From: Candidatus Woesearchaeota archaeon
Lineage (GTDB): Archaea; Nanobdellota; Nanobdellia; Woesearchaeales; JAZDKJ01
NCBI GenBank assembly: GCA_043803105.1
Contig: JAZDKJ010000006.1
Coordinates: forward strand, 208,673 to 272,672
Direction of reading: 5' to 3'
DNA: 64,000 nt
The notes beneath the pieces are model-generated. The model was given only the letters and a program-made list of their open reading frames with translations, did not search any database and was not told where the DNA came from. Shown here one piece after another: positions 16,704 to 51,298 of this stretch. Numbering within the stretch: position 1 is the stretch's first letter; each line of letters starts with the position of its first letter. A program made the translations under genes and the position numbers.

Positions 16704-16704
16704 C

Positions 16705-17592: not shown

Positions 17593-17593
17593 T

Positions 17594-18583: not shown

Positions 18584-18687
18584 ACCTGCTTCTACCAGGG
18601 CGTGCTTTATATATTTTATTAAACCACTCGAGAGTAAAGACCTGTTTAACCAAAACAAATAAATAACAAGCAGTAACACCATTTCCT

Positions 18688-21368: not shown

Positions 21369-22397
21369 TTGATGAAGGTTGCCATCTCAATGGAAGAGAA
21401 ACGGCAAAGGGTCAAGGACAGGGCTCTTCTGCTTGTCGATAACTTATCAAGCAGTCTCTATGAGGAGGACATCCATGCTTTGTCCATAAGGTTCTTCTCG
21501 GTGATCCATGAGTTTTTCGCTGATTTTTGCGGTCTGCGCTATCAGTTCACCTATCCAGAGCTCATTTCAGAGATTAGGAAGCGCAACTTATTTGATGATT
21601 TCCTGTCCAAAAAGGTTATTGACTTTATTGCTGTGCTCCAGGAAAAGGAGTATAGTAAGACAGAATTTAATGTCTCTGAATTGAACAGGTGCCTAAAGGG
21701 ATTCAGGCTGATCATAAAGAGTTGTTCTGTCTCGACTACTCACCATGGCATGCACCATAGATTTTATTACCTATTCCAAAGGTTTGGCTTCCTTACAGCC
21801 CACCTTGCCAAGCGTTTTGGCAAGCGCGATGTAGATGATATAGTCTGCCTCATCAACTCTGCAAGGTCAAACCTCGACGAACATAACATCGACCAGGCTC
21901 AGAAAACTTATGAGGATATCATCAAGCTCTACAACAGGTTGTCTGCTGAGGAGAGGAAAAGCGTCTTTCACGGGATTCATTCCCTCTATGCATCAATTGA
22001 GAAGGCTTATACAGAAAGCCTGCTAAAGCAAATTGACAGTCTCTTTGAGGATCTGCATCACCAGCTTGATTCTGGAGACCTCGCCAAGGCCGCTGAAACC
22101 TATTCTTCACTTCAGGCGCGATATGATGAATTGCCTCCTGCGAATAAGAAAAGGCTGTATTCAGAGATTGGACATTGTTACACAGATCTGCAGGCTCTGC
22201 GTGACAAGTCAGCACTCACAGACTTTGACAGGCTTCTCGTAAGGATAAAGGCTGGTGTTACGAGCCAAAAGGTGAGCCTTGCGATGTCTTTGTATAATGA
22301 GGCAGACAACCTATATTCGCAGCTCCCGTTCAGACTGCAGCAAAAGGTCTATACCAATTTGAAGTCCACTTTCAGTCTGCTCTCACGGTTGAGCTGA
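21369..22397 (+). CDS. hypothetical alpha-helical Tyr/Leu-repeat protein, homologous to the cytoplasmic tail of the 723-aa surface protein
   Basis: FTYPELISEIRKRNL...EYSKTEF aligns with FTYEEIAVELRKRRV...EYSNYVV of ORF 27835-30006. Three ~36-aa repeats of the form xxY...LY..L......K.Y..I...Y. Its stop abuts the convergent giant gene. Confidence 0.5.
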   Translation: MMKVAISMEEKRQRVKDRALLLVDNLSSSLYEEDIHALSIRFFSVIHEFFADFCGLRYQFTYPELISEIRKRNLFDDFLSKKVIDFIAVLQEKEYSKTEFNVSELNRCLKGFRLIIKSCSVSTTHHGMHHRFYYLFQRFGFLTAHLAKRFGKRDVDDIVCLINSARSNLDEHNIDQAQKTYEDIIKLYNRLSAEERKSVFHGIHSLYASIEKAYTESLLKQIDSLFEDLHHQLDSGDLAKAAETYSSLQARYDELPPANKKRLYSEIGHCYTDLQALRDKSALTDFDRLLVRIKAGVTSQKVSLAMSLYNEADNLYSQLPFRLQQKVYTNLKSTFSLLSRLS

Positions 22398-25300
22398 CTA
22401 AGGATTGCTGCCCCGGTTCTTGGTTATCACAAAAACTGCATAGCCTATCATCGCCAGGGTTGATGCCAGCACAATACTGAGTTGCATCACGTTCTGTTTG
22501 GCAAAACTTATCAGGGTTGCCAGCGTGCCTTGCTCCATTGGTTGTTCGATCGTTCTCATCTGGCTGGTAATTAAGTACCTGCAAGCGTCGATTGCGTTCT
22601 TCAGCAGCTGCTGCGCTTCTGTGATTAATCCCGATTCTATGTCTGCCCTTGCCTCAGCCAACAGCTCGTTCAGCTCAAGGCATTCTGGGTTCGAAGATAG
22701 AAGGTCCCTGACAAAGCGTACAGAGTCGTTCATTGATTCAAGGAACGGCAATGGGTTTATGGATATAACAGCATTGTCTCTGAAATATGGGTCTTCTGAT
22801 ATCGCGCTTAGGTTTATCTGGTAAGGCTTTTGCTTTGGCTTGCTCGTGGTAATGTTTAGTTCAGTCTCTGTCTTTTCTCCAGGTCTTAGCTGGTTGAACC
22901 TCATTTCCTTGAACGTAAGTGTGACATTGCCTTCAGATGTTTGAGCCATAAGATGTATCTGTTTTAGGGTCACGTTGCCGCTGTTTCTCAATTCAATCGG
23001 TGCGATTATCTCTGTAGGAGAATTGAATTTCAGCGGTTTTGTCAACACAAGTTCAAGCGATATCGGTCTGGTAACATTGACAAGTTCTTTTCTTGGTACG
23101 CTTATGTACTGCGTCGCCCCACCCCCGCTGGAGCTTGCCTGTGGCAGGTATTCCTCAGGTGCCTTCTTTACAGAGACCACTACTGTATTTGACCATGCCG
23201 TCCTGTTTCTGGAGTCAGTGGTCCAGAAGACGAGGCTTGCATCTCCTGTGAAACCTGCCTCCGGGTTAAGGTTGACATACTTTTGGTTGTTAATGCTCAA
23301 CCCAAGATAGTCTGCATTCTGGATGCTCGTGTAGTTGAAGGTCAGTGAGTCATTGTCAGGGTCTTTGAAATAGTCATCCAAATCAATCCAATTCTGTACA
23401 GAGTGGTCTTCCACAACGATAAAGTTTGCTATGGAATAATTCATCTGTAAGCTTTCAATTACAGGTGTAACACCAATGTTGCTTGTGCTCATGTTTATCA
23501 TGAACTGCACGAACCTTGTGTTCCAAGTTGCAGGTGATGCATTCTGTTCGAACTCGTGGCTGAAGTTGATTAAGGTATGTTCGCTGTTTGTGGAAGGCTT
23601 GCCCCACGCGCTCCAGTTTATGCCGTCTGCGCTTGTTCTGGTCCTGATTGTTATGTTTGTCCCGGCAGGCTTTGATTCCATCCAGCTAACAATCGTCAGG
23701 TTGGGCCTTGCCACTGAGGTATAAACACCTGTCTGAGAGTCAACAGCACTTGAGATATAGCTTCCCTTTGTGTAGTAGCTGGTGCTGTTCTGTCTGGACA
23801 AGGTTATGTTTTGCGCTGTGTTGTTGGTTCTGTAGTTTGTGCCTCCTGTTAAACCTATTGTCTTTCTCCCAAAATATGATGGCCTGTCCAAGTTTTTTAC
23901 AGTGACATTCCAGTAGAAGGATGCCTTGTTCCCTAGTTGGTCGCGTACCTCAACTGTGACGTTTCTTGTTCCTGAATCAAACCACCCGATGTTATAGTTC
24001 CAGCTGCTGGCTGTGCCTTGAAGAACCCCGCCAAGTATCCATTTGTAATATTTTGGGTCTCCGTCTGGCTCAATACTGCTCTGGTTGAAAAGGATTGTTC
24101 TGTTCTCTGTAATATTTATCCTTGTTCCTTGGGGGAAAAGGTTGCGGTTTGCAAAGGCAAATACTGTGTAGCTTGATATCGGCCATCCATAAGGATATAT
24201 CATCGTGATGTTTGGCGCGTAGTTTGTTCCGTTGATTCTGAAAATCACCTTTCCGCCGGTCCATAGGCTTCCGTCATTCAAGGATATGTTTACTGTGTGA
24301 TTGCCCACCATCCCGCTGGTTATCGTATAGTTGATTAATCCCATCTGCAGTGAGATGTTCGTAATATTGAACATGGTTGAGTTTGTGTAAAAGAATAGCC
24401 TGTCGCCATCCACGTCTGAGCCGTTCACGTATATCACAGCCCTGTCTCCTACTTTGTACACTTTGTTCGGTATGTTTCTCATGATTGGCGCATCATTGAC
24501 TGAGGTCACTGTCACGGTAATGTTGTTGCTGTACGTTACGTTATGTGTGTCATTGAGGCTGAAGTAGAATACCTCCACCCCATGCCAGTTGGCTGAGGGA
24601 TAGAGGGAAATCTTGCTGTCATCCTCGATATTGACATTTACGTATACATCATCATAGACCTTGTAGCTCAGGTTATCCTTCTGTGAGCCTGAGCATAGGT
24701 GAAAGTCTGGGTCATAGAAATAGTCTGTTAATGTGAAATTGTCAATCAGGTCATGGTCCTCCTCCCACGTGATATTGGGGAAGGATATGTTCAGAAAAGG
24801 CCCCCTGTTGACATTTATTACTGTGACATTCCATGTTAAAACCGTTGTAGCGTTCTGTGAGTCCGTAGCCCAAACTGTCACATTATAGCGTCCTGCCTCA
24901 CAATATCCTGGCCAATACGTCCAATTCCTCTCATACGCTTTGATGGTGTTCATCAGGTAATACTTGAATGTTACAGGCTGGCCTTCCTCATCATACACCT
25001 GTGTGATATTGAAGAGCAATGAGCTTCCTTCAAATACAGAAACATTAGTCTGGTTGGGTTTGTAGCCTAGGATTACAGGAGGATCATTGACGTTCACGAT
25101 GCGGAATACCACCAGCCTGGATACATTGTTGAATCCGTCGCTAAGCGAGATGTTCACTGTGTGGTTTCCAACATCTTTCTGTATGGGTGTAAGGCCTATG
25201 TGATAGCTTGTTGTGTTGACCTTTGTCAAGTTGAACAGCGTATTATTGCTCCACATTGTGAGATTTGCCATTTCCTCGTCATAGCCGCCTATGTATATGC

Positions 25301-27518
25301 TTGCTGTCTGGTCTTCCAGCAGGGTGTAGTTTGTCCGTAGATTTGTAAAATAAGGTAGATCATTGACAATTGTAATGTTTAATGTGAAGATTGTGAGGTT
25401 ATACCCACCATATCCATCAGTGACATTCACCCTGATTGTATGGTTTCCCGCGTCTGCCTGCTGTGGTGTGAAATTAATGAGGCCTGCCGTGCTGTTGAAT
25501 AGGGATATCGAAAAGAAGCTAGCATTTGTCTGGAATATCAATTGGTCATTGTCAGGGTCAAATCCATTCACATAAAAGGTTAGTCTCTGGTCCTCTGCTA
25601 TGGTTTTTGGTCCTATTGGATAGATTAACGGCGCCCGGTTCACGAATATGGTCAAGTGCACGACCTGTGAATCGCTTTTCTGTATTGTGGTATCATCATC
25701 ATGTACGCTGATGTTCACAAACCATTCTCCAACCAGTGATGTGTTTGTGATGTTTAGGTTTGTACTGCTGCTTGCAGGGCTTATCACGTTTGCTGCGTCA
25801 ATGTTAAAGAAAGTGCAGTTATCAGTGAAGGTTAGTATATCATCTTCATCAAGGTCTGTCGCACTAAGATTCAGCAGATACGAGCGGTTTATCCTGAGGT
25901 AGGTGTGTGGGATTGCCGCCAGGATTGGTGGGTTGTTGTAGTCTACTATGCTGAACTTTACCAGGGTGTAGTTGATTGCACCCTTTGAATCAGTGACGGT
26001 TATCCTTACAGTATGGTTTCCAACGTCTTGATTGACTGGTGTGAAGCTGATTTGCCCTGTTGCATTGCCGTCTGCATGCCTTACCGTGACTATGTTGAAG
26101 AATGTTGCATTGTCTGTGAATGTCAGGTTATCCCCGTCCTGGTCTGTTGCATTGATTGTAGTAAAGAAAGGGGTACCTTCCATTGCTGACTGGTTGTTTA
26201 TGTGTTGTATCCATGGTGCTGTGTTGTTTCTTATTGTGAACTTGACTATCTGCGAGTCCCAGAGCTCTGAGTCATTGACTGAGATGTTCACGAAATGGTC
26301 ACCTTGTTGCGAATTGCTGGGAGTAAAGTTGATTAAACCGGATAGTGCGCCAATTGTAAATAACGTGGAGTTGCTGTTAAAGTATAGGTATTCTCCACCA
26401 TCCACGTCTGTTGCGTTTGCCCAGAATTCGTACTTCAGGCCTGCAATCAAGGTTTGGTTGGGGATGAACACGAGCTCAGGCGGGTCATTGACACCAGTCA
26501 CATTAAGCTTTATCGTGTTGCCGAATGCAGCATTGTGGCTGTCATTTGCCTTGAGCGTGATGTACTCAACACCCCAGAAATTTACCTGCGGCAAGAAGCT
26601 CACCTTGGAACTCGTGGCATTGATTGTAACCATTATGTATGTATTGCCACTCACTGTGTAAATTACTGTGTCTTTGTTTGCACCGGTGCAATTTATGTCA
26701 GGGTCAACGAAATAGCTCTGCAGTGTTAGATTGTTTGTTAGATTATGGTCCTCCTGCCAGGTGATGTTGGCAAAGCTTCCATTGAGCACTGGAGGCCTGT
26801 TTGTGTTGTTTACTGTTATAGTCCAATTGTGTGTGTCTGCAGTCTCGTTGAGGTCCCTGACCACAAGCGATACATTGTGTTTTCCTGCTGAACAAAAGTC
26901 CGCATAATATGTCCAGCTTCCGTTTGACATATTGGAGATTTTTTTTGCCGTATTGTCCAGGTACCATGTTGTGTTAAGCCTGTCTCCCCATGGCATGTCC
27001 TTGTCGCTTGTGCTGTAGTTGAACCAGAATCCTACGCTGAGGTTCTCTTGTGTGCTCACATTTTTCTGCACTGGATTCCACCAGGTGATGTTTGGCTTGT
27101 CGTTCAAGTTCTTTACGTAGAAGTACAGCAATACGCCTGAGAATTCTGTTGGTTTTCCTGCGTCCAGCGCGTTCACAATTATGGTCCAGTTCAGTTGGCC
27201 TGTCAAAGGATCTCCCACGTCATTATTTGTGGGAGTGAAGTTCATCAGCGCTGCAGTATTGTTCTTGCTTACCAGGCTGAATGAGCTGAATTTTCCAGGA
27301 GGCAGGTCGTGGGTAAAGTTTATTGGGTACTCCAAGTCTGGGTCTGTTGCTATTATGAAGAACTGGAACCTCTGTCCTTGTGTCAGGTTGAACATGGTGC
27401 CGCTTGCAACATTCTGGAATATCGGGTTTGCTGCATAGACTCCTGTTACGGTTAGGATGAGTGCAACTGCGATCAACACTGTTGACCTTCTCATGTCATC
27501 CTCACTTTTATTGTGCAA
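22398..27518 (-). CDS. giant (1706-aa) cadherin-like-repeat surface protein with signal peptide and C-terminal membrane anchor
   Basis: N-terminal signal peptide. Many roughly 100-aa repeats each ending in a V(N/T)D-x-PP-like motif (VNDPPELVF, VNDAPIMRN, NTNRPPVLNG, VNRAPLIYP). Very dense N-x-S/T sequons. C-terminal TM segment. Confidence 0.75.
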   Translation of the reverse strand: MHNKSEDDMRRSTVLIAVALILTVTGVYAANPIFQNVASGTMFNLTQGQRFQFFIIATDPDLEYPINFTHDLPPGKFSSFSLVSKNNTAALMNFTPTNNDVGDPLTGQLNWTIIVNALDAGKPTEFSGVLLYFYVKNLNDKPNITWWNPVQKNVSTQENLSVGFWFNYSTSDKDMPWGDRLNTTWYLDNTAKKISNMSNGSWTYYADFCSAGKHNVSLVVRDLNETADTHNWTITVNNTNRPPVLNGSFANITWQEDHNLTNNLTLQSYFVDPDINCTGANKDTVIYTVSGNTYIMVTINATSSKVSFLPQVNFWGVEYITLKANDSHNAAFGNTIKLNVTGVNDPPELVFIPNQTLIAGLKYEFWANATDVDGGEYLYFNSNSTLFTIGALSGLINFTPSNSQQGDHFVNISVNDSELWDSQIVKFTIRNNTAPWIQHINNQSAMEGTPFFTTINATDQDGDNLTFTDNATFFNIVTVRHADGNATGQISFTPVNQDVGNHTVRITVTDSKGAINYTLVKFSIVDYNNPPILAAIPHTYLRINRSYLLNLSATDLDEDDILTFTDNCTFFNIDAANVISPASSSTNLNITNTSLVGEWFVNISVHDDDTTIQKSDSQVVHLTIFVNRAPLIYPIGPKTIAEDQRLTFYVNGFDPDNDQLIFQTNASFFSISLFNSTAGLINFTPQQADAGNHTIRVNVTDGYGGYNLTIFTLNITIVNDLPYFTNLRTNYTLLEDQTASIYIGGYDEEMANLTMWSNNTLFNLTKVNTTSYHIGLTPIQKDVGNHTVNISLSDGFNNVSRLVVFRIVNVNDPPVILGYKPNQTNVSVFEGSSLLFNITQVYDEEGQPVTFKYYLMNTIKAYERNWTYWPGYCEAGRYNVTVWATDSQNATTVLTWNVTVINVNRGPFLNISFPNITWEEDHDLIDNFTLTDYFYDPDFHLCSGSQKDNLSYKVYDDVYVNVNIEDDSKISLYPSANWHGVEVFYFSLNDTHNVTYSNNITVTVTSVNDAPIMRNIPNKVYKVGDRAVIYVNGSDVDGDRLFFYTNSTMFNITNISLQMGLINYTITSGMVGNHTVNISLNDGSLWTGGKVIFRINGTNYAPNITMIYPYGWPISSYTVFAFANRNLFPQGTRINITENRTILFNQSSIEPDGDPKYYKWILGGVLQGTASSWNYNIGWFDSGTRNVTVEVRDQLGNKASFYWNVTVKNLDRPSYFGRKTIGLTGGTNYRTNNTAQNITLSRQNSTSYYTKGSYISSAVDSQTGVYTSVARPNLTIVSWMESKPAGTNITIRTRTSADGINWSAWGKPSTNSEHTLINFSHEFEQNASPATWNTRFVQFMINMSTSNIGVTPVIESLQMNYSIANFIVVEDHSVQNWIDLDDYFKDPDNDSLTFNYTSIQNADYLGLSINNQKYVNLNPEAGFTGDASLVFWTTDSRNRTAWSNTVVVSVKKAPEEYLPQASSSGGGATQYISVPRKELVNVTRPISLELVLTKPLKFNSPTEIIAPIELRNSGNVTLKQIHLMAQTSEGNVTLTFKEMRFNQLRPGEKTETELNITTSKPKQKPYQINLSAISEDPYFRDNAVISINPLPFLESMNDSVRFVRDLLSSNPECLELNELLAEARADIESGLITEAQQLLKNAIDACRYLITSQMRTIEQPMEQGTLATLISFAKQNVMQLSIVLASTLAMIGYAVFVITKNRGSNP

Positions 27519-27838
27519 TTGTTTTGCTTATTGTCCACAGTATATTGCACCTCAACAGTGTTCTGCCCAACTTGTACATCTTGCCATGTGCATCTTATTC
27601 CTTCTTGTATTGCTGAGCAAATGTTTGTGTCTGCTTTGGTTGGATAGCCTTCAATCGTTGCCACTATGTTCTGCCCTTTGCTTAAAATGATTTCATCATT
27701 GCACCTGATGTGGTGGATTTCTTCTTGCGACATTACCAAGTAGCTGGTTAATGACTGAGTGTCGAGCATCAGGCTTATAGCTGCTAATATGGTGGTTATT
27801 AGCACCAGGAGCCCCATTTGCTGTTTCCACTGCCTCAT
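27491..27838 (-). CDS. small secreted or membrane-anchored Cys-containing protein
   Basis: Signal-anchor GLLVLITTILAAI, four Cys, and a position between the two large surface genes with short overlaps on both sides. Confidence 0.4.
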   Translation of the reverse strand: MRQWKQQMGLLVLITTILAAISLMLDTQSLTSYLVMSQEEIHHIRCNDEIILSKGQNIVATIEGYPTKADTNICSAIQEGIRCTWQDVQVGQNTVEVQYTVDNKQNNCTIKVRMT

Positions 27839-30006
27839 TTCTTCTCCTTTGTTGATTTATGTAGTTCGTCGTACAGCCTTCGTACTGCTGCAAAGTATTG
27901 TCTCTGGTCTTGCTCGCTCAAGACCTTGTAAAGTTTCATCACTTGCTTGTACCCTCGAACCGCTGCCTGTTGGTCATTCTTGTGCATTGCCTCAAATACA
28001 TTGTATATCAACTCAAACATCTGCCTGGATTTTCCTTCTATTTTCCATGAGGTTTTGTTTTGTATAATACGCATGTCTGTGCTCTGCTTGATTATTCTGC
28101 GAAGTTCTTCTATCAAGTTTGCTAGCTCCTCGCTTGACACTACATAATTGCTGTACTCTATCTCTTTGATTCTTCGCAGCAATGATTCCGCTATTCCTTG
28201 CAACTTTGGATCAACCCTCCTTTTCCTAAGTTCTACAGCTATCTCCTCGTAGGTAAATTCATAATCCAGTCTAAGCATTGCCTTGAAGAATTGCTTGGTT
28301 GCGCTGCCAAGCTCCTTGATGCCTTCCTTTGGATGTCTTACATCAATCGAGTCCAGTTGTGCCAAGACCTCCTCATAAGTTGTCGTCTCTGTTCTGAAGG
28401 TCAATTTCATCAGCTGTGCAAGGTTCTGGCTCGTTCTGTGTTTTTCTAGTACCTTGGTTACATATGGTTTGCTAATCATGATACCAACTAGGATTGCCAT
28501 TGTAAGGAGGCTAATCAAAATAATTGACCATCCTGTGAAAGCCTCCTGCAAAGTCTCTATTGATATCGGCTGCTCTGTAGCTATTACCGCCTCTCCCGCC
28601 CCGCCAGGTTGCGCTAGGCATGGTTCGCAAGGTCCTCCGCAATCTATGCCTGCCTCTTCCTGGTTCTTTACCCTGTCATAGCATGTGGCGCATGGCTGGC
28701 ATGGTCCGCCGCAATCAACACCCTCCTCATTCCGGTTCCACACTCCGTCAATGCATTGGGGTATGCCCTTGCATGGCTGGCTTATGCTCGGCCTCTTCTT
28801 TATGGTGTTGCAATTGTTTAGGTCTATGCAGTTCCTGTACATTGTGCCGTTTTCAAGGCAGCCATCCCACCTCTGGCAGAACCACTCTTCAACGCACTTA
28901 ATGCTTCCACCACCTCCGCCTCCGCCTCCGCCTGCAGCTGCCGGTACTATAGGTGGTGGTGTAGTGACGCGGAGTGAAACATTGTTGCTTCTGTTGCTTG
29001 CACCCCAATTGTCTGTTACAGTGAAGTACACCAATTCATTGCCAATCCATCCTTGCGGCTGTGAGAAAACCACAAAATTGTTGCTCGTTGGGTAAATGTC
29101 TGCTTTTATTACGTGCAGCGGATTGAGATATACAACATTGAAGTATAGGTGGTCGTCCCTGTCAGGGTCAAACACAAAATCATTCAGGTAGAATGCCGCC
29201 CTTATCTGATTTACAAACCAGGTCTGTGGCTCTAGGTTCCTGATAAACCTTGGTGGCCTGTTGACATTGGTTATGTTCACTGTCCAGTTTAGCATTCTCG
29301 TGTTGTTGAATTGGTCTGACAGCATGATTGACACATTGAAAATGCCTACCGAAGTGAAGTTGGTGTTAAGTGCATACCTGCTGCTTCCAGTTGCATTGGC
29401 TGTGCTGTTTCTTGTCTGCCCGTTGACTCTCCATTGTAGGCTGACTGTCTCATTTAGGGTTTCAAAGAATGAGACCTTGAACCGCAAGGTCTTGTTCTCG
29501 CTTATGTTGACTTTCGGGAATTTGCTGTATACTGATTGATTTGGGTAATAACCTGTTATGTTTGGTGGTAGGTTTTTTATTATCGTGATGTTCAGGCTTT
29601 TGGTTGTTAGCCTGTTTGAGCAAATTGAACTGTCATCTGCTGTTATGTTGACCGTTTGCCTTCCTGTATTGGCATTGCTGGCTGTAAAGTAGATTACTCC
29701 GGTAATTGGGTCTATGTCAAACATGGTACTGTCATCAAAATAGGTGATTGTGTCGTTGTGCGGGTCAGTTGCATTGGCTCTGCAAAAATAATAGTAGAAA
29801 GCTGTGAAGTTCTTTGGGCAATTGATATTGAGTTGCGGCGGTACATTGATGCACAGGTTCAACAGTGCTTCTGAAAAGTCGCTTGCTTTGCCTGTTAGCC
29901 GTGTTGGTGCACTGGCTTCTTGGTAGATTCTCACGTTTATGTAAAAGCCTATGATTACGAAAACAACCGCCACTGCGGCTATTGTGTTGTTTGAGATCCT
30001 AATCAT
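27835..30006 (-). CDS. 723-aa single-pass surface protein with a cadherin-like repeat ectodomain, poly-Gly linker, Cys-rich module, TM helix and cytoplasmic Tyr/Leu-repeat domain
   Basis: Signal peptide, VNRPP motif, a G9 linker, two GxDCGGPC(Q/E)PC repeats, the TM helix WSIILISLLTMAILVGIMI, and a C-terminal domain homologous to ORF 21369-22397. Confidence 0.7.
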   Translation of the reverse strand: MIRISNNTIAAVAVVFVIIGFYINVRIYQEASAPTRLTGKASDFSEALLNLCINVPPQLNINCPKNFTAFYYYFCRANATDPHNDTITYFDDSTMFDIDPITGVIYFTASNANTGRQTVNITADDSSICSNRLTTKSLNITIIKNLPPNITGYYPNQSVYSKFPKVNISENKTLRFKVSFFETLNETVSLQWRVNGQTRNSTANATGSSRYALNTNFTSVGIFNVSIMLSDQFNNTRMLNWTVNITNVNRPPRFIRNLEPQTWFVNQIRAAFYLNDFVFDPDRDDHLYFNVVYLNPLHVIKADIYPTSNNFVVFSQPQGWIGNELVYFTVTDNWGASNRSNNVSLRVTTPPPIVPAAAGGGGGGGGGSIKCVEEWFCQRWDGCLENGTMYRNCIDLNNCNTIKKRPSISQPCKGIPQCIDGVWNRNEEGVDCGGPCQPCATCYDRVKNQEEAGIDCGGPCEPCLAQPGGAGEAVIATEQPISIETLQEAFTGWSIILISLLTMAILVGIMISKPYVTKVLEKHRTSQNLAQLMKLTFRTETTTYEEVLAQLDSIDVRHPKEGIKELGSATKQFFKAMLRLDYEFTYEEIAVELRKRRVDPKLQGIAESLLRRIKEIEYSNYVVSSEELANLIEELRRIIKQSTDMRIIQNKTSWKIEGKSRQMFELIYNVFEAMHKNDQQAAVRGYKQVMKLYKVLSEQDQRQYFAAVRRLYDELHKSTKEKK

Positions 30007-30154
30007 TGTCCTTCTTTTCTTTGTACTTGAGCAACATGTGCCTGATTCCCTCTCGTGTTATCTCTGCTTGGTTGCTGAACAGTCCCTTATCTATCAGCTC
30101 CTGCATCTGCCTCTTCATTTCTTTTCCGACACGTATATGGATTAGCGTTGCCAT
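29999..30154 (-). CDS. ribbon-helix-helix (CopG/Arc-like) DNA-binding protein, 51 aa
   Basis: MATLIHIRVGKEMKRQMQELIDKGLFSNQAEITREGIRHMLL. Start taken at the internal ATG at 30154. Overlaps the start of the 723-aa gene by 8 nt. Confidence 0.55.
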   Translation of the reverse strand: MATLIHIRVGKEMKRQMQELIDKGLFSNQAEITREGIRHMLLKYKEKKDND

Positions 30155-30322
30155 TTTGCTATTTATAAGTATCAGAAATATAACTAATTGATATATATAA
30201 ATATTTGTATATAAGTAGATAGAATAAAACAGATATATCGAAATGATACACTTAAGATACACTTTATTATAGGGCAGTCAAAATAATCTACAAAAGGCTT
30301 AAAAACCTAGAAACCGCAATCT
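30155..30322. promoter_or_regulatory. AT-rich promoter region with several TATA-like boxes heading the RHH and surface-protein operon
   Basis: ATATATAAATATTTGTATATAAG-type elements upstream of the minus-strand RHH gene. Confidence 0.3.
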
Positions 30323-30739
30323 CTACCAGGCTCTTGTTATGACTATTCTCAGCTTGCCGTAATATGTGCCGTTCACAGTGTTTTCAGGCACAATTCCTGA
30401 TGATTGCACCTGTTCTTGCGTGCCCTTGTCCAGTCTAAAGCTTGTATTGGAGAACCTGACAAACCTTGCCACATCTCCAGAGATTTGGACGGTAACTTGA
30501 ACCGGCATGTTATAGATGTTTCTAACAGTGAAAGCCCGATGTCCTGTTCCGCCCGGAGGTACTGCTCCGTAGGTAAGGTTGATAGGGTTTACATCAATGC
30601 CCACAAAGTCTGCCACCACGAGCTTCACATGGGTTTCCTTTACATCAACTACATAATAGAATGAGTATAAGATTGATGTTGCAGTTATGGAAATCAGCAG
30701 CGCCACAAAAAGCAGAATCAGCGTTTGCTTAAGGTTCAT
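30323..30739 (-). CDS. secreted or membrane-anchored hypothetical protein (138 aa)
   Basis: N-terminal TM/signal LILLFVALLISITATSILY. Last gene of the minus-strand secreted-protein operon. Confidence 0.45.
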   Translation of the reverse strand: MNLKQTLILLFVALLISITATSILYSFYYVVDVKETHVKLVVADFVGIDVNPINLTYGAVPPGGTGHRAFTVRNIYNMPVQVTVQISGDVARFVRFSNTSFRLDKGTQEQVQSSGIVPENTVNGTYYGKLRIVITRAW

Positions 30740-31859
30740 TTTTCCTCCTGCCTCTCATCAGGAGCAGCATAAGCCCTGCCACAATTATCAAGAGAGCAAT
30801 CAATCCTAAACCCCCAAATACTATCATTGGTTGTTCAGTCAGTTTCTTCTTGGCAGGAGTGGTAATCTCAACAATTCCTTGGTAACTGTTTGTGCCACCG
30901 TCATACTTCAAAATGATGGTTGACTGGTACATACCGGGCTTCATGTTTTTTGTGTCAAAATATGTCTTCATGGTTTTTGTTTCCCATGGTTCAAGGTCGG
31001 TTGATGGTGTTTGGAATGTTGTGTTGCCAACGCTCACAATAGCATATTGATTTGTTATCCTCGAATTCCACAGGCTTTGCACTATTACCTCAAATGGGCT
31101 GATGGTTTCAAATCCTGCTGTCCTTGTGTAGTTTATCAAACCTACTGAGAGGGATCCTATCTTGAATTGCCTGCTCATATAAGAGGTATTTGTCCTGTAA
31201 TGGAATGCTGCCTTTGCCAGGTACTCGCCTCCCTTGTAGCCTTTGCTTGCCCATTTCACAGCATACGATTGTCTTTCCACTCTTGAAGCCAGTGGTTTTG
31301 TATCAGTTTTTAGTTCTGCAATTGTCTGGCCTGCCATATCTACAATCTGAACATCACCCCAAGACGCAGTAATATTTTCATAACCATAGTTTGATGCATA
31401 TATCGTCACTGGCAGAGTCTCATTCTCGTTGATGTTCGGGACTGCAAAATCTGTCAAGACAAAAACCCCCGGAAAAGGGACAACTATGACAATGAATGCC
31501 ACTACAGTGGTTGCGGTACCTATCATGTCACCGCCTTGCGGAACCTCAGCAGCGCTGACTTCGATTATGTTCTTGCCAGGTGTTTTTATGAACTCAGGCA
31601 GTTTGAGATGTATCGTTACAGCCTGTCCCTTGAGGTTTTGCGCCGAGAATTCTTCTGTTTTCAATAAGCTTGCGTATTGTGCCAGCCCTCCACCCAAGTT
31701 GACTCTGATTTGTGCAGCATCCCCTACCAGGAAGGTCACATCCTGTTCCAGGTTGGGTTGGAAATCAATATAGGTTTTTGCTGGAGAAATGAACGTTCCT
31801 TGTACTGCTTGCACTGAAATAAAGATAAAAAATAAGAAAAAAAGGTTATGCCTCCTCAT
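30729..31859 (-). CDS. secreted hypothetical protein with C-terminal TM anchor (376 aa)
   Basis: Signal peptide FFLFFIFISVQAVQG and C-terminal GLGLIALLIIVAGLMLLLMRGRRKNEP. Confidence 0.55.
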   Translation of the reverse strand: MRRHNLFFLFFIFISVQAVQGTFISPAKTYIDFQPNLEQDVTFLVGDAAQIRVNLGGGLAQYASLLKTEEFSAQNLKGQAVTIHLKLPEFIKTPGKNIIEVSAAEVPQGGDMIGTATTVVAFIVIVVPFPGVFVLTDFAVPNINENETLPVTIYASNYGYENITASWGDVQIVDMAGQTIAELKTDTKPLASRVERQSYAVKWASKGYKGGEYLAKAAFHYRTNTSYMSRQFKIGSLSVGLINYTRTAGFETISPFEVIVQSLWNSRITNQYAIVSVGNTTFQTPSTDLEPWETKTMKTYFDTKNMKPGMYQSTIILKYDGGTNSYQGIVEITTPAKKKLTEQPMIVFGGLGLIALLIIVAGLMLLLMRGRRKNEP

Positions 31860-31868
31860 AATGCTTCC

Positions 31869-32525
31869 TTAAATTTTTGGTTTACCTGTCGCTATAACTG
31901 TATTGCGTTTTAATCCTAGGGGGGCTGTGCCGTCAAAACTGACTTGAACATGCAGGCTAATTGTGTTTGCCGAGACACCATAGTAGAATCTGTCGCAGGT
32001 TATATTGCTCCATCCCTCATGCGTAACCTCAACCCAGTCATTCACGAATTTTGACATATTGGTTGACAAGACGCACCCTGCTGTGGCTGTCGAACCTGTC
32101 CTTGTGCCGTTAAGCATCTTAAAAAACAAATGGGCATTTGTCCCTCCAACAAATGCTGAGCTGTTCTTGAAAGTGATGTTTAGTGAGCAGTTGTTGTTTC
32201 CGATATTCCTTAACTCCAATGCCTCAGTACAAGCCTGAAAGGTTGTAGAGCATCCACTTGTATTGATATATCCGCTCGTGTTCAGTTTGCAGGTCCTCGT
32301 TGCGTATCCGGTTCCCCAGTTGCACCTTGCCTGGCTAAAGTTAATCCAGTTTACGTCGCTTATTGTAAGACTAATGTTGCCTACTGTTTTGTTGGCTGAA
32401 GCGAATCCTGCTGCCCCCGGTTTAATCCCTGATAGTTTGTTCAGGCTTATAAGTGACCCTCCTATTGATACCACTATAGCTGATATAAGAAGTATTGTTA
32501 GTGTCTTGTTGGATATTTCTTGCAT
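31869..32525 (-). CDS. secreted Cys-containing paralog P1 (218 aa)
   Basis: N-terminal signal anchor, conserved ARCNWG.GYA...CKLNTS.YIN.SGCS...NIGNNNCSLNITFKN...ATGKPKI. Many N-sequons. Confidence 0.55.
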   Translation of the reverse strand: MQEISNKTLTILLISAIVVSIGGSLISLNKLSGIKPGAAGFASANKTVGNISLTISDVNWINFSQARCNWGTGYATRTCKLNTSGYINTSGCSTTFQACTEALELRNIGNNNCSLNITFKNSSAFVGGTNAHLFFKMLNGTRTGSTATAGCVLSTNMSKFVNDWVEVTHEGWSNITCDRFYYGVSANTISLHVQVSFDGTAPLGLKRNTVIATGKPKI

Positions 32526-32536
32526 TTTTTTCCTCC

Positions 32537-32770
32537 TTATGGCTTTCGTATCTCTAGGTTGATTTCTGCTTGTGTTGTTGGTTGCGGTTGTATGTTCAGT
32601 TGTATTTCTGCGTTTGCCGTCGGTATATCTGTTGGTTGTTTGTTTGTTGTTTGTTGGCCTGGTGCTTTCGGTATATTAACACTAGTTATAAAAGCCCACG
32701 TGCTTATTACAGAGCTCATAATGACTAGCACCAACAGAATTAGTACAGTGTTTTTTGATATGTCTGTCAT
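32537..32770 (-). CDS. small single-TM protein S1 (77 aa), cassette partner of P1
   Basis: MTDISKNTVLILLVLVIM...WAFIT...PTTQAEINLEIRKP. Start set at the conserved MTD.SKN. Confidence 0.45.
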   Translation of the reverse strand: MTDISKNTVLILLVLVIMSSVISTWAFITSVNIPKAPGQQTTNKQPTDIPTANAEIQLNIQPQPTTQAEINLEIRKP

Positions 32771-32830
32771 CCTCTTTGAACCTCCTTGAGTGCGATTCTT
32801 CCTGCCGAATAGTCGCATTAGTTGCTTGTC

Positions 32831-33487
32831 TTACACCTTTGGTTTTCCTGTTGCTATTATAGTATTGGTTCTCACTCCTGTCCTTGCCGCTGCGTCAAAT
32901 TCTACTTGGACTTGGAGGGTTATTGTGTTTTGGTTTACTCCGAAGTAGAATTTGTCGCATGTGATGTTGCTGTATGCTTCTTTTGTTACTTTTACCCAGT
33001 CTGCTGATACGAATCTTGAGAAGTTTGTTGAAAGGGTGCATCCAGGTCTTATGTTTGTTGCTCCGGTCCCGTTTTGCAGTTTATAAAATAGTTTAGTGTT
33101 TGCTCCTCCTATAAATTCTGAATTGTTTTTGAATGTGATGTTTAGTGAGCAGTTGTTGTTTCCGATGTTCTTAATCTGCAGCGGTAAGCAGTTTACTGTG
33201 CTGAAGCCTGGCGAGCATCCGCTTGCGTTTATGTATGGGCTTGTGTTCAGTTTGCACATTGTTGTTGCGTAGCCTGATCCCCAGTTGCACCGTGCTTGTG
33301 AGAAGTTTATCCAGTTAATGTCGCTTATCGTGAGTGTCACATTGCCCCTTGTTATATTTGCCGTGGCAAAGCCCGCAATGTTTTGCACTGCCGCAAGCCT
33401 GTTTAGGCTAATAAGCGATCCTCCTAAGGTAATTATGATAGCGGCAATTAGCAATATAGCCAATGTTCTGTTAGATATTTCTTCCAT
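32831..33487 (-). CDS. secreted Cys-containing paralog P2 (218 aa)
   Basis: Same family as P1 and P3, with stretches of near-identical nucleotide sequence. Confidence 0.55.
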   Translation of the reverse strand: MEEISNRTLAILLIAAIIITLGGSLISLNRLAAVQNIAGFATANITRGNVTLTISDINWINFSQARCNWGSGYATTMCKLNTSPYINASGCSPGFSTVNCLPLQIKNIGNNNCSLNITFKNNSEFIGGANTKLFYKLQNGTGATNIRPGCTLSTNFSRFVSADWVKVTKEAYSNITCDKFYFGVNQNTITLQVQVEFDAAARTGVRTNTIIATGKPKV

Positions 33488-33501
33488 TGTGTTTTCCTCC
33501 T

Positions 33502-33744
33502 TTATGGTTTTTTTATTTCTAGGTTGATTTCCGCCTGTGTCGTTGGTGGCGGTTGTACAGGTTGTATAAACAGTTCTATCTGACCGTCTACTGCTGGCGG
33601 CATGTTTATCTGTTGTTTGATTGGTGTTTGCGCCTGTCTTTGCAGAGTGTTCACATTGGTGATGAACGCCCAGGTACCAATAACAGAGGTCAGGATAATC
33701 ATTACTAATAGAACCAATATGATATTCTTGGACACGTCCGTCAT
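33502..33744 (-). CDS. small single-TM protein S2 (80 aa), cassette partner of P2
   Basis: MTDVSKNIILVLLVMIIL...WAFITNVN...PPTTQAEINLEIKKP. Confidence 0.45.
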   Translation of the reverse strand: MTDVSKNIILVLLVMIILTSVIGTWAFITNVNTLQRQAQTPIKQQINMPPAVDGQIELFIQPVQPPPTTQAEINLEIKKP

Positions 33745-33848
33745 TAGATCCTTTTTTAAACTATGTTTGTTGAATCCTAAATATGGTTTTTGATACTGCA
33801 CATATTTAAGCTTTTCTGTGACCTGAAACACAGGTTGCCTGACTTTGT

Positions 33849-34514
33849 CTATATTTTTGGTTTTCCTGTTGCTATTATTTTGTTGATTCTAAATCCTGTG
33901 GTTGCTGCTGCGTCAAATTCTACTTGGACTTGGAGGGTTATTGTGTTTTGGTTTACTCCGTAGTAGAATTTGTCGCATGTGATGTTGCTGTAATATGTTT
34001 TTGTTACTTTTACCCAGTTTGCTGTTACGAATCTTGAGAAGTTTGTTGATAGGGTGCATCCGGGTAGTGTGTTTGTTGTTCCGGTCCCGTTTTGTAGTTT
34101 GTATGATATTTTTGCGTTTGCTCCTCCTATGAATGCTGAGCTGTTTTTGAATGTGATGTTTAGTGAGCAGTTGTTGTTTCCGATGTTTTTTATTTGTAGT
34201 GGTGCGCAGTTTGTTGTTGTGAAGCCTGATGAGCATCCGCTTGCGTTTATGTATGGGCTGGTGTTCAGTTTGCAGGTCTTTCTTGCGTAGCCTGATCCCC
34301 AGCTGCATCTTGATTGTGAGAAGTTGATCCAGTTAATGTCGTTGATTGTAAATGAGACGTTGCCTCCGGTTTCGTTTGTTACTGCATAGCCTATTATGGC
34401 TAAGTGGCCTTCGCCAGTGATTCGGTTTATGCTCAGTAATGTGCCCATTACAGTCACAAAGAGCGCAACCACTGCAATGGATGCCAGAACTTTGTTGGAC
34501 ACGTTATTATACAT
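33849..34514 (-). CDS. secreted Cys-containing paralog P3 (221 aa)
   Basis: Same family. First gene of the operon, with an AT-rich promoter at 34515-34650. Confidence 0.55.
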   Translation of the reverse strand: MYNNVSNKVLASIAVVALFVTVMGTLLSINRITGEGHLAIIGYAVTNETGGNVSFTINDINWINFSQSRCSWGSGYARKTCKLNTSPYINASGCSSGFTTTNCAPLQIKNIGNNNCSLNITFKNSSAFIGGANAKISYKLQNGTGTTNTLPGCTLSTNFSRFVTANWVKVTKTYYSNITCDKFYYGVNQNTITLQVQVEFDAAATTGFRINKIIATGKPKI

Positions 34515-51294: not shown

Positions 51295-51298
51295 AAAG

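What the first reader, a model, noticed from the sequence alone, without database searches (positions are those of the whole stretch)
22398..30322. RHH-headed operon encoding two cadherin-like, N-sequon-dense surface proteins (723 aa and 1706 aa)
Four minus-strand genes overlap by 4-28 nt, in the order RHH (51 aa), 723-aa protein, 115-aa Cys protein, 1706-aa protein. They sit behind an AT-rich promoter with multiple TATA-like boxes. Both large proteins have signal peptides, repeated roughly 100-aa modules ending in cadherin-like V-N-D/R-x-P-P motifs, and an extreme density of N-x-S/T sequons, consistent with archaeal N-glycosylation of surface proteins. The 723-aa protein also has a G9 linker, a Cys-rich module and a TM helix with a cytoplasmic domain. 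In a small-genome archaeon this investment suggests a host- or cell-contact adhesin system under a dedicated RHH regulator.
Basis: partly seen in the sequence, partly recalled or inferred. Interest (0 to 1): 0.7.

Follow-up and report, generated by a model that had tools for sequence, protein, structure and literature searches.

The report
Conserved DPANN archaeal surface-protein locus
Four tightly packed genes in a Woesearchaeota genome encode a small DNA-binding protein and two membrane-anchored, sugar-site-rich, many-domain surface proteins; they are the core of a larger gene cluster conserved across DPANN archaea, which may be a cell-contact apparatus, though that role is untested.

Summary
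Four overlapping minus-strand genes encode an RHH protein (51 aa), a 723-aa protein, a 115-aa protein and a 1706-aa protein (probably 1698 aa from an ATG). They sit behind an AT-rich region. p1706 has 13 Ig-like (Big_9, cadherin-like, PKD) domains, a C-terminal TM anchor and 107 N-x-S/T sequons against 32 expected. p723 has three matching Ig domains, a poly-Gly hinge, a Cys-rich module, a TM helix and a helical cytoplasmic tail.

The source is a Candidatus Woesearchaeota MAG. The four genes are not a stand-alone operon. Across 42 DPANN loci the p723–p1706 pair recurs (24/32 assessable) and is fused into one protein in one genome. It is usually flanked upstream by p218, p376 and p138 surface-protein genes. 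Downstream lie a soluble paralogue of the p723 tail (p342) and a MoxR–DUF58–BatA(VWA) triad.

The RHH is present in only 7/38 loci. There it is 51–80% identical and is often preceded by a conserved direct repeat (RTRTATC-N4-RTRTATC). Other loci carry an unrelated RHH in front of the p1706 gene.

An adhesion or cell-contact role is plausible but unproven. An S-layer-like envelope role is the main rival. No description of the cluster was found.

The parts
30155..30322 (-). Intergenic promoter/operator region upstream of the RHH gene. It holds a TATA-like element TTTATATATATCA at 30189-30201 and a direct repeat GTGTATC-TTAA-GTGTATC at 30245-30262, followed by GATATA.
   Evidence: Sequence. The alignment with L001 shows the TATA-like element to be identical and the repeats conserved. 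The direct repeat was found. The motif RTRTATC-N4-RTRTATC is unique in the 64-kb window and recurs upstream of the RHH gene in L001, L006, L007 and L038.
29999..30154 (-). RHH-type small DNA-binding protein (51 aa). It overlaps the p723 start by 8 nt.
   Evidence: ORF. Family alignment A4 is 51-80% identical. Pfam RHH_8 hits 6/9 members and RHH_1 hits 2/9, all sub-threshold. PDB CopG/ParD antitoxins match at E 0.01-0.04. NCBIfam gives ParD 1e-4, CdrS 9e-4 and NikR 0.03.
27835..30006 (-). p723, a membrane protein. In order: N-terminal leader/anchor (6-31), three Ig-like domains (48-343), G9 hinge (about 355-365), Cys-rich module with two C-x-D-G-x-x-N-x-x-E-x-G-x-D-C-G-G-x-C-x-x-C repeats (369-465), TM helix (494-512) and a helical cytoplasmic domain (about 520-723).
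   Evidence: AF2 mean pLDDT 76; Foldseek top hits are cadherin ectodomains, E 1e-11; Big_9 in 21/24 family members.
27491..27838 (-). p115, a small N-terminally anchored protein with 4 Cys. It is a variable accessory gene.
   Evidence: The L001 counterpart is similar only at the N-terminus, and the gene is absent from many loci where the p723 and p1706 genes overlap by 4 nt.
22398..27518 (-). p1706, a giant surface protein with its probable true start at ATG 27494. In order: Sec-type signal peptide, 12 tandem Ig-like domains (23-1205), a ~140-aa unassigned insert, a 13th Ig-like domain (1345-1450), a Gly/Ser linker, a CARDB/DUF7507-like beta domain (about 1480-1600), a helical stalk and a C-terminal TM anchor (1680-1698). 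It carries 107 N-x-S/T sequons.
   Evidence: (NCBIfam tandem-95 repeat, 136 bits against a cut-off of 90).
21369..22397 (+). p342, a soluble cytoplasmic paralogue of the p723 tail (YxFTYxEL...EYS module plus A-x3-Y...Y-x2-L hairpins). It is convergent with the p1706 gene, with the two stop codons abutting.
   Evidence: BLASTP against the p723 tail gives E 2e-7. Family alignment is A7. A p342-like gene is present downstream of the p1706 gene in 14/29 assessable loci. The family has only 163 representatives in 1.84 billion proteins.
30323..30739 (-). p138, an N-terminally anchored single PapD/ASH-like Ig domain protein in the upstream conserved block.
   Evidence: Cep192_D4 hits 13/23 family members, ASH 9/23 and PapD-like 4/23. 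Synteny is 18/34.
30729..31859 (-). p376, a secreted beta-rich protein with a signal peptide and a C-terminal TM anchor.
   Evidence: WxLIP_HBD hits 9/32 family members (best 6e-7) and CARDB 5/32. TM segments. Synteny is 17/28.
31869..32525 (-). p218a, a sequon-rich small beta-sandwich surface protein and a candidate fibre subunit.
32537..32770 (-). p77a (the 93-aa ORF trimmed to its MTDISKNT start), a TM helix plus a C-terminal strand motif TTQAEINLEIRKP.
32831..33487 (-). p218b, a paralogue of p218a (64% identity).
33502..33744 (-). p77b, a second copy of the small TM protein.
33849..34514 (-). p221, a third p218 paralogue.
15756..18682 (-). MoxR AAA+ ATPase (17594-18682), DUF58 (16705-17592) and BatA-type TM-VWA protein (15756-16703). 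In this window three housekeeping genes separate the triad from the cluster; in most relatives it is adjacent.
   Evidence: Pfam and NCBIfam BatA. The triad lies within 12 kb of the p723 gene in 17/29 assessable loci, and between the p723 and p1706 genes in L017, L032 and L052.

Best explanation
**What it is.** The four genes are the core of a conserved DPANN cell-surface gene cluster.

**Shown from sequence and models**
- p1706 is exported through a Sec-type signal and held in the membrane by a C-terminal TM helix.
- It carries a long array of 13 Ig-like (Big_9, cadherin-like, PKD) domains.
- It carries roughly one N-glycosylation sequon per 16 residues.
- p723 displays three domains of the same kind on a poly-Gly hinge and a disulfide-rich stalk. 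It crosses the membrane once more and ends in a helical cytoplasmic domain.
- That cytoplasmic domain has a free-standing paralogue (p342) encoded next door.

**Inferred**
- The two proteins work together in one membrane as a long arm and a short receptor-like arm.
- The complex most likely mediates contact with another cell or surface, such as the host of an episymbiotic Woesearchaeote. The variable distal domains would do the binding and the conserved stalk would make up the base.
- p723's tail, p342 and the linked MoxR-DUF58-BatA(VWA) genes would handle assembly or coupling to the cytoplasm.
- The 51-aa RHH is translationally coupled to p723. It probably binds the conserved RTRTATC-N4-RTRTATC repeat just upstream of the TATA-like box and so autoregulates the operon.
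For: **Gene order and coupling**
- The four ORFs overlap by 8, 4 and 4 (or 28) nt.

**Surface topology and domains**
- TM segments, the AF2 model and domain hits agree.

**Glycosylation sites**
- The sequon excess is confined to the parts of both proteins outside the cytoplasm (z = 15 and 5.8).

**The pair works together**
- Both proteins share the Big_9-PKD-Big_9 triplet.
- A p1706-like gene lies directly downstream of the p723-like gene in 24/32 assessable loci, often overlapping it by 4 nt.
- One Nanoarchaeota MAG has a single 2955-aa fusion with a consistent four-TM topology.

**Variable tip, conserved base**
- In the p723 family, Ig1 and Ig2 are 31% and 26% identical on average. Ig3 is 42% and the Cys module 53%, and most of the invariant residues are cysteines of that module.

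**Cytoplasmic link**
- The p723 tail resembles p342. p342-like genes are syntenic.
- The MoxR-DUF58-BatA triad is co-located in 17/29 loci, in varying orders.

**RHH**
- Weak hits converge on RHH families.
- The protein is highly conserved.
- A conserved upstream repeat goes with it.
- An unrelated RHH sits in front of the p1706 gene in other loci.

**Organism**
- The source is a Candidatus Woesearchaeota MAG, a DPANN archaeon.
Against: - There is no experimental or expression evidence of any kind. Adhesion is inferred from fold and lifestyle only.
- p1706 orthologues keep their domain order and are collinear over 1300-1700 aa across orders. Variable adhesins built from recently amplified repeats do not usually look like this; a fixed structural protein does.
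- There seems to be one complete pair per genome, and it is widely conserved. That also fits an envelope component.
- The RHH hits are all below the curated thresholds, and the RHH is absent from most loci (7/38).
- In this window the MoxR triad is separated from the cluster by three housekeeping genes.
- The Cys-rich repeats and the cytoplasmic domain have no known relatives, so the proposed coupling is speculative.
- The Cys-rich repeats were modelled with low confidence (pLDDT 31-45).
Confidence: 0.55

Rival explanations
1. p1706, with p723 as a partner or anchor, is the S-layer or another general envelope scaffold of these archaea. It would be a heavily N-glycosylated, C-terminally anchored lattice protein built of Ig-like domains, comparable to two-component S-layers, and not a specific adhesin.
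For: - The proteins have a C-terminal TM anchor, many Ig-like domains and an extreme sequon density. From general knowledge, these are the textbook features of archaeal S-layer glycoproteins such as Haloferax csg, Nitrosopumilus SLP and Sulfolobus SlaA/SlaB.
- The orthologues are collinear and conserved across several DPANN orders.
- Two co-transcribed partners would resemble slaAB.
- The Foldseek list includes the SbsB S-layer protein.
Against: - Thirteen tandem Ig domains would make a very long rod if extended, which resembles fibrillar adhesins more than compact lattice subunits. The top structural matches are cadherins, titin, RTX adhesin and SiiE.
- Both partners carry their own TM anchors.
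- p723 has a large cytoplasmic domain with a soluble paralogue. This is not a known S-layer feature.
- The p723-like gene lacks a p1706 partner in 8/32 assessable loci.
Confidence: 0.25
2. The whole cluster builds one fibre or pilus-like appendage. p218 (three paralogues here) would be a donor-strand-type fibre subunit. p77, p376 and p138 would be anchor or assembly factors. p723 and p1706 would be the basal or tip-associated large components of that appendage.
For: - The order p77-p218-p376-p138-(RHH)-p723-p1706 is conserved.
- p218, p77 and p723 share an N-terminal leader, [DE]-[IVLM]-S-N-[NKR]-x-[IL]-A plus a hydrophobic helix. p218 and p723 also share a following TG-x-A.
- p138 is PapD/ASH-like and p376 hits WxLIP_HBD.
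Against: - There is no Pfam or PDB sequence link to TasA or AbpA.
- No pilus ATPase, platform protein or peptidase is encoded in the window.
- In L004, L006, L007 and L038 the RHH-p723-p1706 module occurs without the upstream block, so the pair can stand alone.
Confidence: 0.15
3. The RHH is the antitoxin of a toxin-antitoxin pair, or an unrelated regulator that merely sits next to two ordinary, independently acting surface proteins.
For: The best NCBIfam and PDB matches of the RHH are ParD/CopG-type antitoxins.
Against: - No toxin-like gene follows it. The next gene, overlapping by 8 nt, is p723.
- The RHH sits in exactly this position in 7 loci, although p723 there is only ~30% identical.
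- A conserved cis-repeat accompanies it.
Confidence: 0.03

Closest known systems
Bacterial fibrillar/giant adhesins built of tandem Ig-like or cadherin-like domains (SiiE, RTX adhesins, CshA; Pfam Big_9, Cadherin_4, Cadherin_5; NCBIfam 'tandem-95 repeat protein')
   Same: p1706 has tandem ~95-105-aa beta-sandwich domains that score above the curated cut-offs for Big_9, Cadherin_4, Cadherin_5, PKD_4 and tandem-95. The structural neighbours of the p723 ectodomain model are cadherins, an RTX adhesin and SiiE.
   Different: - It is archaeal and held by a C-terminal TM helix, not by an outer-membrane or cell-wall anchor.
- It has an N-sequon excess.
- Its domains are diverged and positionally conserved rather than recently amplified.
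- It has an obligatory partner with a cytoplasmic domain.
- No type I secretion genes are present.
Archaeal S-layer glycoproteins, including two-component SlaA/SlaB
   Same: Ig-like domain arrays, dense N-glycosylation sites, a C-terminal membrane anchor preceded by a helical stalk, and two adjacent co-oriented genes.
   Different: Both partners are membrane-anchored. p723 carries a Cys-rich stalk and a ~200-aa cytoplasmic domain. No lattice or abundance evidence exists, and no sequence similarity to any characterised S-layer protein was detected.
Bat-type MoxR-DUF58-BatA/BatB(VWA) operons of Bacteroidota, Leptospira and Gammaproteobacteria
   Same: MoxR, DUF58 and a BatA-type TM-VWA protein occur in the same order and are genetically linked to TM-anchored beta-sandwich proteins and helical-repeat proteins.
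   Different: BatB, BatC, BatD and BatE are not found. hhalign of the p342/p723 tail against a real DUF4381, and of p376 against a real BatD, found no similarity. The DPANN cluster adds giant Ig-like proteins, p218 and p138. The function of Bat operons is itself not understood.
Small archaeal and plasmid RHH regulators co-transcribed with their target (CdrS, CopG, ParD, omega)
   Same: It is about 50 aa, matches RHH families, sits first in the operon with a translationally coupled downstream gene, and has direct repeats upstream.
   Different: All matches are below family thresholds. DNA binding is untested, and the target genes encode surface proteins.
TasA/AbpA/cannulae/thread donor-strand filaments (comparison for the upstream p218 genes only)

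Membership tests
Bacterial Ig-like / cadherin-like repeat proteins (Pfam Big_9, Cadherin_4, Cadherin_5, PKD_4; NCBIfam tandem-95) | Domain models score above the curated gathering thresholds | tested here: met
   p1706 scores Big_9 131 bits (cut-off 23.6), Cadherin_4 52.1 (25.1), PKD_4 39.3 (27), Cadherin_5 37.2 (26.5) and tandem-95 136 (90). p723 itself has no Pfam hit at E<0.1. However, 21/24 family members hit Big_9, and a jackhmmer search seeded with one p1706 domain finds three domains in p723.
Bacterial Ig-like / cadherin-like repeat proteins | Tandem beta-sandwich fold of about 100 aa per unit | tested here: met
   In the AF2 model of p723, residues 58-348 form three beta-sandwich domains with pLDDT around 90. 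The Foldseek top hits are cadherin ectodomains, titin, an RTX adhesin and SiiE at E 1e-11 to 1e-9.
Classical cadherins (Pfam PF00028) | A match to the Cadherin domain model with its inter-domain Ca2+ motifs (DRE, DxNDN, DxD) | tested here: not met
   PF00028 is not among the hits for p1706 or p723. Only 1 of 24 p723-family members hits it, weakly, at E 0.012. The strict N-x-N-[DR]-x-P linker occurs at only 4 boundaries in p1706 and 1 in p723.
Ribbon-helix-helix (CopG/Arc/MetJ) DNA-binding proteins | A sequence match to RHH family models | tested here: inconclusive
   All hits are to RHH families but fall below their thresholds. RHH_8 hits 6/9 members (best 3e-4) and RHH_1 hits 2/9 (best 7e-5). 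NCBIfam gives ParD 1.2e-4, CdrS 9e-4 and NikR 0.03. PDB CopG/ParD chains match at E 0.011-0.044.
Ribbon-helix-helix (CopG/Arc/MetJ) DNA-binding proteins | Binds repeated short operator sites as a dimer of dimers | not testable with these tools
   A candidate operator exists: the direct repeat GTGTATC-N4-GTGTATC at 30245-30262. It is conserved upstream of the RHH gene in L001, L006, L007 and L038. Binding needs EMSA or footprinting.
Type II toxin-antitoxin module (ParD-type antitoxin) | An adjacent cognate toxin gene (ParE/RelE-like) | tested here: not met
   The gene overlapping the RHH stop codon is p723, and the gene upstream is the secreted p138.
Archaeal N-glycosylated surface proteins | An excess of N-x-S/T sequons restricted to extracytoplasmic parts | tested here: met
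   p1706 has 107 sequons against 32.4±4.8 and p723 has 22 against 7.6±2.5 in shuffles. No sequon lies after residue 1597 of p1706, and only 1 lies in the p723 tail. Cytoplasmic proteins of the window are not enriched.
Archaeal N-glycosylated surface proteins | Glycans actually attached (AglB-dependent) | not testable with these tools
   No AglB/STT3 candidate was identified among the window ORFs annotated with Pfam. This needs glycoproteomics.
Archaeal S-layer proteins | Forms the 2-D lattice and is among the most abundant proteins | not testable with these tools
   Only generic features are shared: Ig-like domains, sequons and a C-terminal anchor.
Bat (MoxR-DUF58-BatA...) operon | MoxR AAA+, DUF58 and BatA-type TM-VWA genes in a row | tested here: met
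   In the window these lie at 17594-18682, 16705-17592 and 15756-16703 (Pfam; NCBIfam BatA 6e-31, below its 'exception' cut-off). They are linked to the p723 gene in 17/29 loci.
Bat (MoxR-DUF58-BatA...) operon | DUF4381, BatB, BatC, BatD and BatE partners | tested here: not met
   - DUF4381 gives only stray weak hits: 2/16 p342-family and 1/24 p723-family members.
- hhalign against a Catenovulum DUF4381 gives probability 0.3-10%, over the TM region only.
- p376 against BatD gives probability 0.3%.
- These comparisons used single-sequence templates, so they are not a sensitive test.
TasA/AbpA-type donor-strand filament subunits (p218 only) | A jelly-roll/beta-sandwich fold matching TasA or AbpA, and a sequence match to Peptidase_M73/TasA | tested here: inconclusive

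The most novel reading that the evidence does not exclude
The ~19 kb from BatA to p221 would encode one previously undescribed cell-surface organelle of DPANN archaea. It comprises about ten gene families, at least four of them without any database family: p218, p77, the p342/p723-tail module and the 22-aa Cys repeat.

In this reading the organelle is an attachment apparatus. A MoxR/DUF58/VWA assembly module and a transmembrane receptor-like subunit (p723, with its cytosolic paralogue p342) would couple a giant glycosylated Ig-like arm (p1706) and a small-subunit fibre (p218) to the cell interior. This would be the long-sought host-contact machinery of Woesearchaeota/Pacearchaeota-type episymbionts.
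Probability: 0.25. Interest if true: 0.85.

Novelty: new variant of a known kind. Interest (0 to 1): 0.6.

Why it matters
How uncultivated DPANN archaea with ~0.5-1 Mb genomes recognise and hold on to other cells is an open question. Almost nothing is known for the Woesearchaeota/Pacearchaeota groups.

This analysis turns an isolated pair of 'hypothetical' giant proteins into a defined, widely conserved gene set:
- It has a testable regulator-operator pair.
- It has a Rosetta-stone fusion that predicts a physical complex.
- It has a receptor-like subunit with a cytoplasmic domain.
- It is linked to MoxR-VWA genes whose function is itself unresolved in bacteria.

The set gives concrete targets for metatranscriptomics, glycoproteomics, cryo-ET labelling and AF-Multimer work. 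If the proteins turn out to be the S-layer instead, that would identify the envelope protein of a major uncultured lineage.

Tried and rejected
1. **Exact-sequence lookup of p723.** Nothing was on record. The source was identified through the homologue search instead.
2. **Rfam and tRNA scans of the window.** Both were empty.
3. **Pfam on the isolated parts.** The Cys module, the cytoplasmic tail and the p1706 C-terminal pieces gave nothing significant.
4. **PDB sequence searches with family profiles.** Profiles of p218, p342 and the 22-aa Cys repeat gave no meaningful hits.
5. **Is the p723 tail/p342 a DUF4381, and p376 a BatD?** I fetched real Bat operons from plasmids and ran hhalign. The results were negative, so I do not claim membership.
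7. **Toxin-antitoxin reading of the RHH.** Rejected because there is no toxin gene.
8. **The bacterial sigma-70 and terminator scan** is uninformative for an archaeon.
9. **Literature searches** for DPANN with TasA, MoxR, cadherin, adhesin/PKD, von Willebrand, or Woesearchaeota S-layer found no description of this cluster. Subscription-only papers were not searched.
11. **The operator pattern.** A first search used the wrong spacer (N3) and found nothing. It was corrected to N4.


Full report
**1. The observation**

- an RHH-like ORF at 29999-30154 (51 aa from the internal ATG; a longer GTG-initiated ORF runs to 30262);
- p723 at 27835-30006;
- p115 at 27491-27838;
- p1706 at 22398-27518.

The overlaps are 8, 4 and 28 nt. 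The 28-nt figure depends on a TTG start. An ATG at 27494 forms the canonical ATGA overlap with the p115 stop and is preceded by GAGGA. p1706 is therefore more likely 1698 aa, starting MRRSTVLIAVALILTVTGVYA, which is a standard Sec signal.

Hydrophobicity scans give:
- p723: an N-terminal helix at 9-27 and a second TM helix at 494-512;
- p1706: a signal peptide and a TM helix at 1680-1698;
- p115: one N-terminal helix.

**2. Domains and sequons**

p1706 passes the curated thresholds of Pfam Big_9, Cadherin_4, Cadherin_5 and PKD_4, and of NCBIfam 'tandem-95 repeat protein'. A jackhmmer search seeded with one of its own domains finds 12 contiguous ~100-aa units at 23-1205 and a 13th at 1345-1450. 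The same search finds three units in p723 at 48-343. BLASTP shows that p723 and p1706 share a Big_9-PKD-Big_9 triplet.

The strict V/x-N-D/R-x-P-P linker is present at only a few boundaries.

N-x-S/T sequons are strongly over-represented:
- p1706 has 107 against 32.4±4.8 in shuffles.
- p723 has 22 against 7.6±2.5.

They are almost confined to the predicted external parts. Cytoplasmic proteins of the window are not enriched.

The AF2 model of p723 has mean pLDDT 76. It shows an N-terminal helix, three confident beta-sandwich domains, a poorly modelled Cys-rich region, a long TM-plus-juxtamembrane helix (491-552) and an all-helical C-terminal domain (559-722). Its Foldseek neighbours are cadherin ectodomains, titin, an RTX adhesin and SiiE.

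**3. Source and family**

p723 is identical to a hypothetical protein (locus tag V1837_03100) of a Candidatus Woesearchaeota MAG, on a 542-kb contig. Full-length relatives of 650-1000 aa occur in MAGs labelled Woesearchaeota, Pacearchaeota, Nanoarchaeota/Nanobdellota and Aenigmatarchaeota.

Most of the invariant residues in the family alignment lie in the Cys module. Its form is C-x-E-x-W-x-C...R-C-x-D-L-N-x-C followed by 2-5 copies of C-x-D-G-I-x-N-Q-G-E-x-G-I-D-C-G-G-P-C-x-P-C.

By region, mean identity to the window protein is:

| Region | Mean identity |
|---|---|
| Ig1 | 31% |
| Ig2 | 26% |
| Ig3 | 42% |
| Cys module | 53% |
| Cytoplasmic domain | 20-25% |

This amounts to a variable tip on a conserved stalk. 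The 22-aa repeat has no Pfam or PDB counterpart. It also occurs in Altiarchaeota proteins and in bacterial M43 peptidases.

**4. The real unit is larger**

I mapped the window's proteins with phmmer onto the ORFs of 84 related loci. A recurrent array emerged: [p77]-p218(x1-3)-p376-p138-[RHH]-p723-[small variable gene]-p1706, then a convergent p342-like gene, then MoxR-DUF58-BatA.

Among 42 non-redundant loci with a full-length p723-like gene, the neighbours are present as follows:

| Neighbour | Present / assessable loci |
|---|---|
| p1706 | 24/32 |
| p376 | 17/28 |
| p138 | 18/34 |
| p218 | 15/27 |
| p342 | 14/29 |
| MoxR | 17/29 |

In L017, L032 and L052 the MoxR triad sits between the p723 and p1706 genes. 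In the window it lies at 15756-18682, separated from the cluster by PNP, amidohydrolase and AlaX genes.

A compact variant consisting of RHH-p723-p1706 alone exists in L004, L006, L007 and L038.

In L012 a single 2955-aa ORF joins a p723-like part to a p1706-like part through the former signal peptide. The resulting four-TM topology is consistent. This Rosetta-stone fusion argues that the two proteins act together in one membrane.

p1706 orthologues are collinear over their whole length. They differ by whole-domain indels around residues 880-1130.

**5. The cytoplasmic module**

The p723 tail is homologous to the neighbouring p342 (E 2e-7). The family shares a [FF]-x-E-x-L-x-I-x-Y-E-F-T-Y-E-E-L ... 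E-Y-S segment and one or more A-x3-Y-x6-Y-x2-L-x2-E-x-K hairpins.

It has no Pfam or PDB relative. Only 163 representatives exist among 1.84 billion clustered proteins. They occur either as 200-360-aa stand-alone proteins or at the C-terminus of 700-1000-aa p723-like proteins.

A suspected link to DUF4381 of Bat operons was not borne out.

**6. The RHH and its site**

The 51-aa protein gives only sub-threshold hits, but all of them are to RHH families:
- Pfam RHH_8 and RHH_1;
- NCBIfam ParD, CdrS and NikR;
- PDB CopG/ParD chains.

Its orthologues are 51-80% identical even where p723 is ~30% identical.

Upstream, TTTATATATATCA (30189-30201) is identical in L001. A direct repeat, GTGTATC-TTAA-GTGTATC (30245-30262), is the only instance of RTRTATC-N4-RTRTATC in the 64-kb window.

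The same exact pattern lies 47-128 nt upstream of the RHH ATG in L001, L006, L007 and L038. It occurs only once elsewhere in 1.34 Mb of loci. This makes it a strong operator candidate.

This RHH occurs in only 7/38 loci. Six others carry one or two copies of an unrelated 40-46-aa RHH (M-x-N-I-N-I-x-I-P-D-x-L-H-K-K...) that overlaps the start of the p1706 gene. Members of this second family hit Pfam ParD (best 4e-7), RHH_10 and FitA-like RHH. L002 has a double-HTH protein at the same position.

A small DNA-binding protein inside the cluster is therefore a recurrent feature, but the proteins that fill the role are not orthologous.

**7. The upstream block**

p218 has three paralogues in the window. 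It has no Pfam or PDB sequence match. Its AF2 model has pLDDT 76 and consists of an N-terminal helix plus a beta-sandwich.

p376 members hit WxLIP_HBD and CARDB. p138 members hit PapD/ASH-type Ig domains. p218, p77 and p723 share an N-terminal leader motif.

**8. Interpretation**

*Shown:*
- a translationally coupled gene set;
- two TM-anchored Ig-like proteins with a sequon excess;
- conserved pairing and one fusion;
- a cytoplasmic module with a soluble paralogue;
- linkage to a MoxR-DUF58-BatA triad;
- an RHH with a conserved upstream repeat.

*Inferred:*
- glycosylation;
- physical complex formation;
- autoregulation by the RHH;
- a cell-contact or adhesion function.

The main alternative is that the pair is an S-layer-like envelope component. 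It shares the generic features, and the domain-by-domain collinearity across orders favours it. A third view treats the pair as the large components of a p218-based fibre. It is compatible with either of the other two.

I found no description of this cluster in the searchable literature. General work on Nanoarchaeota notes that hypothetical surface proteins are diversified and that glycosylation is a major investment (PMC6142677).

Noticed in passing
L012:9938-18805 (Nanoarchaeota MAG E14_metabat.bin.33): A single 2955-aa ORF fuses a p723-like protein (anchor, DCGG repeats, TM, cytoplasmic YEATYEEL module) to a p1706-like ectodomain through a third TM helix that corresponds to the p1706 signal peptide. 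It ends in a fourth TM helix.
   Followed up: partly
window 15756-18682 (-), and about 30 related loci: A MoxR-DUF58-BatA(VWA) triad is genetically linked to the surface-protein cluster across DPANN lineages. By the positive-inside rule, the BatA VWA/MIDAS domain (94-270, DASGS motif) would face outward between TM2 and TM3.
   Followed up: partly
window 31869-34514 (-): There are three paralogues of a ~220-aa sequon-rich beta-sandwich protein (p218a, p218b, p221), interleaved with two copies of a ~77-80-aa TM protein ending in TTQAEINLEI[RK]KP. The family matches no Pfam family. The predicted fold weakly resembles donor-strand filament subunits (TasA, AbpA, cannulae, threads).
   Followed up: partly
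N-termini of p723 (30006 downward), p218a/b, p221, p77a/b and their homologues in loci: These proteins share a leader motif, [DE]-[IVLM]-S-N-[NKR]-x-[IL]-A, followed by a hydrophobic helix. In p218 and p723 a conserved T-G-x-A follows about 10-15 residues later. It looks like a family-crossing export or processing signal that matches no known class III or SipW-type signal model.
   Followed up: partly
L008, L009, L018, L034, L049, L055, L062 (for example L008:12294-12434): One or two tandem 40-46-aa RHH genes (M-x-N-I-N-I-x-I-P-D-x-L-H-K-K-x-K-I...T-L-K-E-x-I-I) lie immediately upstream of the p1706-like gene (in six of the loci the proximal copy overlaps its start by 4 nt). They are unrelated in sequence to the window's RHH.
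   Followed up: yes
p723 residues 411-465 (window about 28612-28776, -), plus L079-L083: The 22-aa repeat C-x-D-G-I-x-N-Q-G-E-x-G-I-D-C-G-G-P-C-x-P-C also occurs, at 55-74% identity, in large Altiarchaeota proteins and in bacterial (Saprospiraceae/Bacteroidota) M43 metalloproteases. It has no Pfam family and no solved structure by sequence.
   Followed up: partly
window 47843-53322 (+) and 43562-44704 (-): A second run of secreted-looking proteins (fn3, CarboxypepD_reg-like, two with no Pfam hit) lies in a locally GC-richer stretch (0.48-0.50 against about 0.43). A separate lone VWA-domain protein is also present.
   Followed up: no
window 22397/22398: The convergent genes p342 (+) and p1706 (-) end on adjacent bases with no intergenic spacer. 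Any terminators must therefore lie inside the opposing coding sequence.
   Followed up: no
loci L007, L010, L015, L026, L029, L038 and others: Many contigs carrying this DPANN-type cluster are deposited as 'uncultured Methanosarcinales archaeon' (binchicken co-assemblies). The RHH of L007 is 80% identical to that of the window, which is from a Woesearchaeota MAG, so these labels look doubtful.
   Followed up: no
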